DNA of 41,043 nucleotides, taken from IMG/VR virus record IMGVR_UViG_2563366998_000006. One strand, written 5' to 3'. This document shows positions 17,204 to 17,494 of this stretch, piece after piece; within the stretch, counting starts at the first letter, position 1, and each line of letters starts with the position of its first letter. A model generated the notes under the pieces. That model had not been told where the DNA came from. It did not search any database and saw only the letters and a list, made by a program, of their open reading frames with translations. This DNA is from a virus. Lineage: Duplodnaviria > Heunggongvirae > Uroviricota > Caudoviricetes. A program made the translations under genes and the position numbers.

Positions 17204-17322
17204 TATATATCCCGAATTATAAGAATGAATTTTTATGTGGCTGAAAATTCTATCAAAACACTAACGCGTACGCAAAAAGTATTGTATTGTGTTAAGAGTG
17301 GTTACTTCGCCACACAGCTTAA

Positions 17323-17350
17323 ACCCGCCGTCGAGCGGGTTTTGTCGTTT
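17323..17350 (+). terminator. Intrinsic terminator upstream of the lysis genes (tR'-like position)
   Basis: ACCCGC-CGTCGA-GCGGGT hairpin followed by TTTGTCGTTT. Confidence 0.5.
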
Positions 17351-17494
17351 CTGGGCCTGGGGATTCGTTGGGCCTAGTCTATCCCGCAGTTATCCATTGG
17401 CTCGGCTTCTTTGACGTTTCCGCTTCTGATTTGCGGTACATGATGTTTCCTCAATTTGCACCTGCTGTATCAGCGAGGTGAGAGATAACTACAA

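What the first reader, a model, noticed from the sequence alone, without database searches (positions are those of the whole stretch)
17204..17494. Late-promoter region separated from Q by a 3.6-kb cargo insertion, with a canonical terminator before the holin
Q normally sits directly upstream of pR'/qut. Here the cargo operon and IS5 intervene, so the late promoter and Q-utilisation site must lie in 17204-17322, followed by the hairpin/T-tract terminator at 17323-17350. The same interval contains a TATAAT -10 element on the minus strand (plus 17216-17221) positioned to drive the cargo operon, giving divergent late-phage and cargo promoters back to back.
Basis: partly seen in the sequence, partly recalled or inferred. 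Interest (0 to 1): 0.35.

Follow-up and report, generated by a model that had tools for sequence, protein, structure and literature searches.

The report
Phage late promoter-terminator cassette, detached from Q
This interval holds the ordinary late-gene switch of a lambda-like E. coli prophage (promoter, Q-protein docking site and terminator hairpin), which in this phage lineage routinely sits 1.4-3.8 kb from the Q gene because swappable cargo, often anti-phage defence genes, is slotted between them.

Summary
A strong hairpin (17321-17342) with a T tract to 17350 lies 145 nt before the holin. A minus-strand TATAAT is at 17216-17221. The Q stop codon is 3,664 nt from the inferred late start.

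Window 17262-17350 is a ~90-bp cassette homologous to the late promoter pR' of Shiga-toxin phages, whose start site was mapped by dRNA-seq in strain Sakai. Its parts are:
- a Q-specific block at 17262-17277,
- a -10 TATTGT at 17285-17290,
- a start near 17297,
- a conserved leader,
- the terminator.

Across 328 related loci the -34..-20 block matches the Q subfamily almost without exception, while the neighbouring segments are shuffled between subfamilies. That marks it as the likely Q-binding site.

The separation from Q is not special. Among the 199 loci with a gap over 200 bp there are 32 cargo types, mostly antisense and low in GC. E. coli K-12 DLP12 has the same layout.

Comparison favours a divergent promoter at 17247-17252 and 17270-17275, whose -35 lies inside the Q block.

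Nothing was tested experimentally in this phage. It is a new member of a known kind, of modest interest.

The parts
13276..13632 (+). Q antiterminator gene, Q21/Q933W family; RefSeq start at 13276, with an alternative upstream start at 13261
   Evidence: Pfam PF06530 E = 3.2e-47, plus a weak sigma-70 ECF region-4-like hit. Distant match to Q21 structures 6P18/6JNX, E = 0.0011. 46% identical to VT2-Sakai/933W Q.
13612..14826 (-). Cargo gene DS1_2 (anti-phage protein). It converges on Q and overlaps Q's 3' end by 21 bp.
   Evidence: NCBIfam NF053869 DS1_2_antiphage, 375 bits against a cutoff of 315. RefSeq annotation 'anti-phage protein' in identical loci.
14829..15833 (-). C-terminal part of cargo gene DS1_1 (YejK/NA37-like nucleoid-associated anti-phage protein), cut off by IS5
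   Evidence: The intact 391-aa homologue in L003 scores 451 bits against a cutoff of 330 for NF053868. Pfam NA37. The window aligns to the uninterrupted locus up to 15833.
15834..17028 (-). IS5 (1,195 bp; transposase 15980-16996) with CTAA target duplication at 15830-15833 and 17029-17032
   Evidence: DDE_Tnp_1 and DUF772 domains. Ends GGAAGGTGCGAA.../...GCACCTTCC and flanking CTAA. Absent from otherwise identical loci in many genomes.
17033..17203 (-). N-terminal fragment of DS1_1 (zinc-ribbon region).
   Evidence: Same start codon as the 391-aa RefSeq protein WP_000355468.1. ORF list.
17211..17214 (-). Ribosome-binding GGGA of DS1_1, 7-10 nt upstream of the ATG at 17203
   Evidence: Read from the sequence: minus strand TATAAT-TC-GGGA-TATATA-ATG.
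17216..17221 (-). It ends 12 nt from the ATG and is probably not the productive cargo promoter.
   Evidence: Sequence. A start about 7 nt downstream would fall after the GGGA. Best -35 candidates are 2-3 of 6. The promoter scan did not list it.
17229..17256 (-). Alternative cargo promoter candidate: TTGATA (17256-17251), 16 bp, AAAAAT (17234-17229)
   Evidence: Listed by the consensus scan at 9 of 12 matches. The scan total equals chance (12 found, 11.3 expected).
17247..17275 (-). Divergent cargo promoter best supported by comparison: -35 TTGCGT (17275-17270, inside the Q block), 17-bp spacer, -10 TAGAAT (17252-17247). Predicted start about 17240, giving a 37-nt leader.
   Evidence: In this Q subfamily a TAnnnT hexamer lies exactly 17 bp from TTGCGT in 10 of 13 distinct cargo flanks, and within 16-18 bp in 12 of 13. 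The background rate is 0.05 per position. The pattern is absent in the cdtI-type (1 of 19) and QuuD-type (0 of 16) subfamilies.
17262..17277 (+). Candidate Q-binding element (qut/QBE): TAACGCGTACGCAAAA, with core palindrome GCGTACGC at 17266-17273. It spans -35 to -20 and takes the place of a -35 hexamer.
   Evidence: Invariant in 69 of 69 loci with this Q subfamily across 17 distinct gap lengths. Replaced by CGCGGTCCGCA in 37 of 37 cdtI-type loci (minor variants) and by TTTACG(TA/AT)CGTAAAA in 152 of 153 QuuD/933W-type loci. Adjacent segments are shared between subfamilies. Cargo-specific sequence starts immediately upstream. It is the only such site in the 41-kb window.
17285..17290 (+). pR' -10 hexamer TATTGT
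   Evidence: It aligns with the annotated -10 TATCAT of VT2-Sakai. All 61 distinct -19..+24 variants among the 259 loci keep T-A-n-n-n-T here (for example TATTGT, TATCGT, TAATCT, TATGCT, TATCAT, TACTGT) while surrounding bases vary.
17297..17297 (+). Inferred late transcription start, +/-3 nt
   Evidence: Position homologous to L004 2960. This is 7 nt after the -10 and 258 nt before the end of the tR' T tract in VT2-Sakai, matching the dRNA-seq/Term-seq length reported for Sakai Stx2a phage (PMC7547250).
17291..17320 (+). Leader GTTAAGAGTGGTTACTTCGCCACACAGCTT, conserved across all four Q subfamilies. Presumed site of the promoter-proximal pause; the pause element is not identified.
   Evidence: GTTAAGAGTGGT is nearly invariant in 259 loci. 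The only -10-like hexamers are AAGAGT (17295-17300) and TACTTC (17303-17308), and neither is clearly conserved as T-A-n-n-n-T.
17321..17350 (+). Intrinsic terminator (tR' candidate): stem 17321-17328 / 17335-17342, loop CGTCGA, T tract 17340-17350. It spans about +25 to +54.
   Evidence: Terminator scan. -11.5 kcal/mol. 63 sequence variants keep a G+C stem and T tract while the loop varies. Related loci with divergent leaders carry unrelated hairpin-plus-T-tract terminators at the same place.
17351..17494 (+). Untranslated leader of the lysis operon. It belongs to the lambda-type holin module and holds no second terminator.
   Evidence: 96% identical to SfII upstream of S. Other downstream modules replace it right after the T tract. 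No further terminator-like site was found.
17495..18301 (+). First late genes: holin S (17495-17821) and endolysin R (17825-18301)
   Evidence: Pfam Phage_holin_3_1. TIGR01594 holin_lambda. RefSeq annotates R as a GH24 protein.

Best explanation
Window 17262-17350 is the Q-dependent late regulatory cassette of a lambdoid prophage whose Q belongs to the Q21/Q933W family.

How it most likely works:
1. RNA polymerase with sigma-70 starts at about 17297 from a promoter with a -10 TATTGT (17285-17290). In place of a -35 hexamer there is a 16-bp CG-rich block (17262-17277).
2. Without Q, the roughly 50-nt transcript ends at the hairpin and T tract (17321-17350). Holin, endolysin and the head and tail genes therefore stay off in the lysogen.
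3. After induction, Q made from the early operon 3.7 kb upstream acts in trans. It binds the block, loads onto the polymerase paused in the conserved leader, and carries it through the terminator into the late genes.

Q and its target are apart because this lineage keeps an exchangeable cargo slot between the last codons of Q and position -37 of the promoter. Here the slot holds the two-gene DS1 defence system, itself inactivated by IS5. The cargo is read on the opposite strand from a divergent promoter that abuts, and probably overlaps, the Q block.

What is shown and what is inferred:
- Shown here: the sequence features, the homology, the conservation and the covariation.
- Inferred: the start site, Q binding, the pause, and termination efficiency in this phage.
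For: 1. Homology to a mapped promoter. The stretch TAAGAGTGGTTAC...CACACAGC...AAACCCGCC...GCGGGTTTT aligns with the region just after Q in VT2-Sakai, where the depositors annotate the late promoter. There, dRNA-seq and Term-seq place a pR' start 258 nt before tR' (PMC7547250).
2. A discrete unit. Cargo-specific sequence begins upstream of about -37, and late-module-specific sequence begins right after the T tract.
3. The -10 keeps T-A-n-n-n-T in every variant.
4. The -34..-20 block tracks the Q subfamily in 258 of 259 loci. The -19..+50 segments are shared between subfamilies, so recombination has had the chance to break the association. The putative recognition helix of Q differs in step: SDGTIRKELQ, DEKLIRIEIQ, SDGYIGKRLQ.
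5. Terminator. It is the best hit of the scan and folds at -11.5 kcal/mol. Variants keep a G+C stem and T tract. Unrelated terminators substitute at the same position in sister loci. It is the only terminator-like site between the promoter and the holin.
6. No alternative next to Q. The sequence after the Q stop differs with each cargo class, and plus-strand promoter-like hits in the cargo are at chance level.
7. The same layout occurs in SfII, Stx2a_1447, cdtI, phage 4A7 and K-12 DLP12.
Against: - No transcript mapping, Q binding or reporter data exist for this phage or its Q subfamily.
- The -35 position matches TTGACA at only 1 of 6 bases, so promoter strength in the lysogen is unknown.
- No convincing sigma-dependent pause element (a -10-like hexamer) is conserved in +1..+20.
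- In Sakai the 258-nt transcript runs through the homologous first hairpin. Either that hairpin leaks or its short product was not captured.
- Q21, the only structurally studied relative, binds a direct repeat. The block here reads better as a short palindrome.
- The Sakai start site was placed on my alignment through the reported 258-nt length, because genome versions differ by 142 nt. This gives +/-3 nt.
Confidence: 0.8

Rival explanations
1. The late promoter and qut lie directly after Q, hidden in the 3' end of the convergent cargo gene (about 13600-13950). Q-modified polymerase then travels 3.7 kb antisense through the cargo and IS5, and 17262-17350 is only a terminator it reads through.
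For: In the canonical cassette pR' abuts Q, with 21 nt between the Q stop and the start in VT2-Sakai. A weak plus-strand promoter-like hit exists at 13902-13929.
Against: - The sequence after the Q stop is different in every cargo class, and many classes place a hairpin terminator there.
- The promoter-like hits number 12 against 11.3 expected by chance.
- No QBE-like block occurs near Q.
- The conserved promoter features all sit at 17262-17297.
Confidence: 0.04
2. The element is chiefly an insulator. The hairpin stops early rightward transcription that runs past Q and antisense through the cargo, shielding the lysis genes. The promoter-like features are vestigial.
For: In this cargo class there is no terminator between Q and DS1_2; the genes overlap by 21 bp. 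Read-through from Q would therefore reach 17321-17350 on the plus strand.
Against: - It does not explain the strict conservation of the -10 pattern or the block that tracks the Q subfamily.
- It does not explain the homology to an experimentally active promoter.
- The two roles are compatible. This is an added function rather than a replacement.
Confidence: 0.06
3. The main product is a trans-acting small RNA, like StxS from Stx-phage pR', and conservation of the leader and hairpin reflects that RNA's function.
For: The +1..+54 region is conserved across four Q subfamilies, more than a plain leader would need. It folds into two hairpins with z = -3.05. StxS shows that pR'-terminated RNAs can be regulators.
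Against: - The StxS sequence itself is absent. The 74-nt RNA comes from the 3' end of the 258-nt transcript, beyond the homology, which ends at the T tract.
- There is no Rfam match.
- The 5' hairpin is broken in the allele GTGCTCAC found with an identical Q.
- No target or Hfq data exist.
Confidence: 0.05
4. The cassette is a dead relic in a defective prophage and does nothing now.
For: The cargo next to it is already hit by IS5. Homologous elements in cryptic DLP12 copies carry stem-breaking changes: GCTGG in 23 loci, GCTGG with a further T-tract change in 1, and GCAGG in 1.
Against: Q, the block, the -10, the hairpin, the holin and the endolysin are all intact. They are 99.9-100% identical to IS5-free copies in many genomes. 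The window also carries complete-looking terminase and HNH genes.
Confidence: 0.05

Closest known systems
pR'-tR' late control region of Stx phages 933W / VT2-Sakai (Sp5) and Stx1 phage Sp15, source of the StxS RNA
   Same: - Same Q family (46% identity).
- Homologous -10 position, start region TAAGAGTGGTTAC, leader and first hairpin.
- Constitutive promoter, Q read-through logic.
   Different: - There Q abuts the promoter (21 nt) and the block is TTTACGATCGTAAAA, which doubles as a 4-of-6 -35.
- The mapped terminator is a second hairpin at +258, and the transcript is processed to StxS.
- Here Q is 3.7 kb away, the block is TAACGCGTACGCAAAA with no usable -35, only the first hairpin exists, and StxS is absent.
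E. coli K-12 cryptic prophage DLP12: quuD - nmpC (IS5-split) - essD rrrD rzpD; likewise phage 4A7
   Same: - Identical layout: Q-family gene, minus-strand cargo, then the same element 169 nt before the holin gene.
- Even the IS5 hit in the cargo is paralleled.
   Different: - The cargo is a porin gene rather than a defence system.
- The Q subfamily (43% identity) and its block (TTTACGTACGTAAAA) differ.
- The holin is of another family.
- A published reporter amplicon for the DLP12 lysis operon is described as spanning -121 to +650. Its forward primer maps inside the 5' end of nmpC, which implies a start about 355 bp upstream of the element. The window has no counterpart to that region.
Phage lambda pR'-qut-tR' (6S RNA) cassette
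   Same: The same regulatory logic as described for Q cassettes generally: a promoter-proximal Q site, a short terminated transcript in the lysogen, and Q-modified polymerase reading into S, R and the structural genes.
   Different: - Lambda Q is an unrelated protein family.
- From my own knowledge: its site lies between -35 and -10, its pause element at +1..+6 is defined, and the terminated RNA is 194 nt.
- Q abuts pR'.
Phage 21 Q (Q21) with its QBE, from the structural studies of loading and loaded complexes
   Same: Same Pfam family PF06530. It has a sigma-region-4-like DNA-binding motif and a QBE within -40..-1 of the promoter.
   Different: - Only a borderline sequence match (E = 0.0011).
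- Q21 binds two 8-bp direct repeats as two protomers. The block here is a short palindrome or 6-bp tandem, and its binding geometry is unknown.

Membership tests
Lambdoid Q-dependent late regulatory cassette (Q, pR', QBE/qut, pause element, tR', late genes) | A Q antiterminator of a recognised Q family is encoded in the same phage | tested here: met
   PF06530 E = 3.2e-47; 46% identity to 933W-type Q.
Lambdoid Q-dependent late regulatory cassette (Q, pR', QBE/qut, pause element, tR', late genes) | A sigma-70 promoter faces the late genes | tested here: inconclusive
   The -10 TATTGT is conserved as T-A-n-n-n-T in all variants and is homologous to a mapped start. The -35 matches at only 1 of 6, and no transcript data exist for this phage.
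Lambdoid Q-dependent late regulatory cassette (Q, pR', QBE/qut, pause element, tR', late genes) | A Q-specific DNA binding element lies at the promoter | tested here: met
   Indirect evidence. The -34..-20 block tracks the Q subfamily in 258 of 259 loci despite shuffling of neighbouring segments and cargo. Binding itself cannot be tested with these tools.
Lambdoid Q-dependent late regulatory cassette (Q, pR', QBE/qut, pause element, tR', late genes) | A sigma-dependent promoter-proximal pause element (-10-like hexamer in the early transcribed region) | tested here: inconclusive
   The candidates are AAGAGT (17295-17300) and TACTTC (17303-17308). Neither is a conserved T-A-n-n-n-T across variants.
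Lambdoid Q-dependent late regulatory cassette (Q, pR', QBE/qut, pause element, tR', late genes) | An intrinsic terminator lies between the promoter and the late genes | tested here: met
   Hairpin 17321-17342 with T tract. Variants retain a G+C stem and T tract, and sister loci have unrelated terminators at the same place. Efficiency was not measured.
Lambdoid Q-dependent late regulatory cassette (Q, pR', QBE/qut, pause element, tR', late genes) | The Q gene lies immediately upstream of pR' | tested here: not met
   3,664 nt separate the Q stop from the inferred start, or 2,465 nt without IS5. Q acts in trans, so this is a feature of layout, not of mechanism.
Lambdoid Q-dependent late regulatory cassette (Q, pR', QBE/qut, pause element, tR', late genes) | Lysis and morphogenesis genes lie downstream on the same strand | tested here: met
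   Holin, endolysin, Rz, HNH and the small and large terminase subunits are all on the plus strand.
StxS small RNA locus | A 258-nt pR'-tR' transcript whose 3' 74 nt form StxS | tested here: not met
   Homology ends at the T tract of the first hairpin. A blastn of the VT2-Sakai +50..+258 region against the window finds nothing meaningful.
DS1 anti-phage system (cargo) | Both proteins pass the NCBIfam equivalog cutoffs and are adjacent | tested here: met
   DS1_2 scores 375 against 315. DS1_1 scores 451 against 330 in the intact homologue. In this window DS1_1 is split by IS5, so the system is presumably inactive.
IS5 | About 1.2 kb, DDE transposase, terminal inverted repeats GGAAGGTGCGAA, 4-bp YTAR target duplication | tested here: met
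   1,195 bp at 15834-17028, CTAA on both sides, DDE_Tnp_1 and DUF772 domains.

The most novel reading that the evidence does not exclude
The 16-bp Q block may be shared by two back-to-back promoters: pR' on one strand, and on the other a cargo promoter whose -35 (TTGCGT) lies inside the block.

When Q accumulates after induction it would do two things at once. It would load onto late transcription, and it would occlude the promoter of the prophage's own defence cargo. This would make the Q-pR' junction a Q-gated cargo slot that is on in the lysogen and off in the lytic cycle.

A related possibility follows from the fact that this subfamily's pR' has no -35 and Q's DNA-binding part resembles sigma region 4. 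Q might also help polymerase start there, and not only read through.
Probability: 0.15. Interest if true: 0.6.

Novelty: new member of a known kind. Interest (0 to 1): 0.3.

Why it matters
- It places an unannotated but very common control element. The element matches in 47% of complete E. coli genomes, with no feature under any of the 12 hits listed.
- It gives a concrete, testable candidate for the DNA site recognised by 933W-type Q proteins, which has not been defined structurally.
- It shows that in a large lineage of lambdoid prophages, including some Stx2a phages, the late promoter is 1.4-3.8 kb from Q. In my view this matters for q-typing assays and for models of toxin and lysis control that assume Q and pR' are adjacent.
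- It defines a precise cargo slot where defence systems and other morons are exchanged.
- For this particular window the finding is ordinary.

Tried and rejected
- Rfam scan of 13000-18500 at E <= 1: only a chance snoRNA hit.
- PDB sequence search with Q: nothing at the default threshold, and only a borderline Q21 match at E = 0.0011.
- Text of the Q21 and Q-lambda structure papers: the QBE and scaffold sequences are in figures only, so phage 21's pR' could not be compared.
- Plunkett 1999 (933W) and Thomason 2015 (K-12 start sites) are not held.
- The supplements of the E. coli 3'-end mapping paper have no essD or nmpC entry, and the StxS paper's supplements are not held. No experimental 5' or 3' ends were obtained for the K-12 DLP12 copy or for the first hairpin.
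- The HnrS prophage sRNA lies within the late genes and was not pursued.
- A literature search for a described Q-to-lysis defence hotspot in lambdoid phages found nothing specific.
- A 5' leader hairpin (GUGGU...GCCAC) was considered and dropped, because an allele with an identical Q breaks it.
- Reading the A-rich tract at -46..-38 as an UP element for pR' was considered. It is equally the T-rich spacer of the divergent promoter, and the two readings cannot be separated here.

Full report
**Setting.** The window is a lambdoid E. coli prophage.
- Q (13276-13632, plus strand) belongs to Pfam PF06530, the Q21/Q933W family (E = 3.2e-47; family naming from Yin et al.).
- Two minus-strand genes follow, at 13612-14826 and 14829-17203. 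They are the DS1_2 and DS1_1 proteins of a defence system that NCBI names by equivalog models. The paper behind those names reports a YejK-type nucleoid-associated domain among newly validated defence domains.
- DS1_1 is split by an IS5 at 15834-17028 with a CTAA duplication. The 65-aa ORF at 17006-17203 is its N-terminal stump.
- Many E. coli genomes carry the same locus at 99-100% identity without the IS5.
- The lambda-family holin starts at 17495 and the endolysin at 17825.

**The observation.**
- The hairpin AAACCCGC-CGTCGA-GCGGGTTT (17321-17342) with TTTTGTCGTTT to 17350 is real. It is the best terminator-like site in 13000-18000 and folds at -11.5 kcal/mol.
- The minus-strand TATAAT at 17221-17216 is real.
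- The distance from the Q stop to the inferred late start is 3,664 nt, of which 1,199 is IS5 plus its duplication.
- Consensus scans alone prove little: 12 promoter-like sites against 11.3 expected, and 8 terminator-like against 4.6 +/- 2.1. The case therefore rests on comparison with related loci.

**What the interval is.**
- A megablast against phage genomes shows 96% identity to Shigella phage SfII from 17255 through the holin. A shorter block, about 17251-17343, recurs in Stx2a phages, cdtI phage and lambda-like coliphages.
- In VT2-Sakai, where Q abuts the late region, the same sequence lies right after Q: TAAGAGTGGTTAC, then a CAC(A/G)CAG leader, then a CCCGCC...GCGGG hairpin with a T run. 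The depositors annotate the late promoter there, with -10 TATCAT.
- Sy et al. mapped the pR' start of the Sakai Stx2a and Stx1 phages by dRNA-seq and its 3' end by Term-seq, 258 nt apart.
- Counting 258 nt back from the T tract of the second VT2-Sakai terminator lands on the A seven bases after TATCAT (L004 2960).
- The homologous base in the window is 17297, and the homologous -10 is TATTGT at 17285-17290. I give the start +/-3 nt, because the paper's coordinates refer to another genome version and I could only anchor them through the reported length.

**Comparative test.** I fetched 320 loci from IMG/VR around four Q subfamilies: this one, cdtI-type, QuuD/DLP12-type and 933W-type. Together with seven annotated loci and the window this makes 328, of which 259 carry the element. 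Four results matter.
1. The conserved unit has sharp edges. Upstream of about -37 the sequence is specific to the cargo. After the T tract it is specific to the downstream late module.
2. The -10 position keeps T-A-n-n-n-T in every variant, while the bases around it change. This holds even between loci with 100% identical Q: GTATTGTATTGT in the window against ATATCGTAATCT in L015.
3. The -34..-20 block tracks the Q subfamily.
   - TAACGCGTACGCAAAA in 69 of 69 loci of this subfamily, across 17 distinct gap lengths. SfII, whose Q is 73-81% identical depending on the method, is among them.
   - CGCGGTCCGCA, with minor variants, in 37 of 37 cdtI-type loci.
   - TTTACG(TA/AT)CGTAAAA in 152 of 153 QuuD- and 933W-type loci; the exception has the block replaced.
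   - The adjacent -19..-7 segments, the leaders and the hairpin variants are shared between subfamilies, so recombination has shuffled everything around the block but not the block itself.
   - The likely DNA-recognition helix of Q changes in parallel.
   - This is the best available evidence that 17262-17277 is the Q-binding part of qut. It is the only such site in the window.
4. Eleven further loci of this subfamily have the same block and -10 but divergent leaders. Most of them carry unrelated hairpin-plus-T-tract terminators some 45-110 nt after the start. A terminator at that place is therefore selected, not merely inherited.

**Open points on mechanism.**
- The -35 position of this subfamily's promoter matches the consensus at 1 of 6. 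The QuuD/933W block offers TTTACG, 4 of 6.
- I could not identify a conserved sigma-dependent pause element in the leader, although GTTAAGAGTGGT (-6..+6) is nearly invariant across all subfamilies.
- The window's hairpin corresponds to the first hairpin of Stx phages (about +26 to +48 there). The 258-nt StxS precursor runs through that hairpin. Either it leaks there or its short product escaped detection.
- In the window, SfII and DLP12 it is the only terminator before the holin. I infer that it must be effective, or the promoter weak.
- StxS itself is absent, and Rfam has no match.

**The separation from Q.**
- Every locus found for this Q subfamily has a gap of 1.4-3.8 kb.
- Over all subfamilies, 199 loci with gaps above 200 bp fall into 32 cargo clusters. 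Most are coded on the minus strand, with 29-49% G+C (the minus-strand clusters 29-42%). The phage flanks in the window have 49-53%.
- Identified cargo includes DS1, PADLOC candidates PDC-M53 (SfII) and PDC-S60 (a STAND NTPase with a phosphoesterase domain), a GmrSD_N/NsnA-like protein, and the porin of phage 4A7 and DLP12.
- The left junction lies in the last 8-10 codons of Q, whose tail changes with the cargo class. Many classes bring a hairpin terminator after Q. The DS1 class does not, and DS1_2 overlaps Q by 21 bp.
- E. coli K-12 DLP12 has the same layout, with the element 169 nt before essD and an IS5 in its cargo as well.
Only the IS5 is particular to this strain.

**The cargo promoter.** A start 7 nt downstream would give a 6-nt leader without that site, and its best -35 is 3 of 6. 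Two alternatives exist.
- TTGATA, 16 bp, AAAAAT (17256-17229) was found by the scan.
- TTGCGT (17275-17270), 17 bp, TAGAAT (17252-17247). This one has comparative support. In this Q subfamily a T-A-n-n-n-T hexamer sits exactly 17 bp from TTGCGT in 10 of 13 distinct cargo flanks, and within 16-18 bp in 12 of 13. The background rate is 0.05 per position, and the rates in the other subfamilies are 1 of 19 and 0 of 16.
- Its -35 lies inside the Q block. This raises the untested idea that Q binding also shuts off the cargo.

**Verdict.**
- The feature is a new member of a known kind: the pR'-qut-tR' cassette of 933W/QuuD-type lambdoid phages in its common Q-distal layout.
- It is present, unannotated in the hits listed, in about half of complete E. 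coli genomes.
- Interest is modest for the finding as given. The candidate Q site and the cargo slot are the parts worth following up.

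Noticed in passing
window 15834-17028 (with 15830-15833 and 17029-17032): IS5 has split the DS1_1 defence gene at a CTAA target. The 65-aa ORF 17006-17203 is only its N-terminal stump fused to IS5 codons, so the DS1 system is presumably dead in this strain. DLP12 in K-12 also has an IS5 in its cargo gene at the equivalent slot.
   Followed up: yes
window 13633-17260; loci L001-L327: The gap between Q and position -37 of pR' is an exchange slot. 199 loci fall into 32 cargo clusters, mostly minus-strand and low in G+C. They include DS1, PDC-M53, PDC-S60, a GmrSD_N/NsnA-like gene and a porin. 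I found no paper that describes this slot as a defence hotspot.
   Followed up: partly
window 13600-13660; L001, L005, L036, L055, L057, L060, L064, L076 after the Q stop: The last 8-10 residues of Q change with the cargo class, so the left recombination junction is inside Q. Most classes bring a hairpin terminator after Q. The DS1 class has none, and DS1_2 overlaps Q by 21 bp, so early transcription past Q would run antisense through the defence genes.
   Followed up: partly
window 17278-17306 versus L015 8801-8829: Loci with 100% identical Q and the same DS1 cargo carry two alleles of -19..+10: GTATTGTATTGTGTTAAGAGTGGTTAC and ATATCGTAATCTGTTAAGTGTGCTCAC. Nine differences fall within 27 bp while the flanks are identical, which suggests a recombination patch within the promoter.
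   Followed up: no
L088 and 22 other DLP12-type loci; also L127, L163: Many DLP12 copies have a stem-breaking change in the hairpin (GCGGG to GCTGG or GCAGG), whereas MG1655 keeps GCGGG. This may be decay of the terminator in a cryptic prophage, or it may be tolerated leakiness.
   Followed up: no
L004 2986-3008 (VT2-Sakai): The canonical-looking first hairpin with seven T's lies inside the 258-nt StxS precursor reported for Sakai. Either polymerase reads through it without Q, or a ~50-nt product went undetected. Published accounts name only the +258 terminator.
   Followed up: partly
L002 878-890 and L043, L044, L048, L053 at 6340: In the Stx2a_1447-type cargo class the Q stop codon is part of TAAGAGTGCTAAC. 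This near-copy of the pR' start motif TAAGAGTGGTTAC may be a scar of the recombination that placed the cargo.
   Followed up: no
L087 4254-4380 (K-12 DLP12): The published reporter for the DLP12 lysis operon (-121 to +650) starts inside the 5' end of nmpC. This implies a start about 355 bp upstream of the pR'-like element, so those transcripts would have to pass the hairpin.
   Followed up: partly
window 12263-13258: A DUF968/HNH-like gene directly precedes Q here and in SfII, Stx2a_1447 and cdtI, but not in DLP12, 4A7 or VT2-Sakai. It travels with this branch of Q genes.
   Followed up: no
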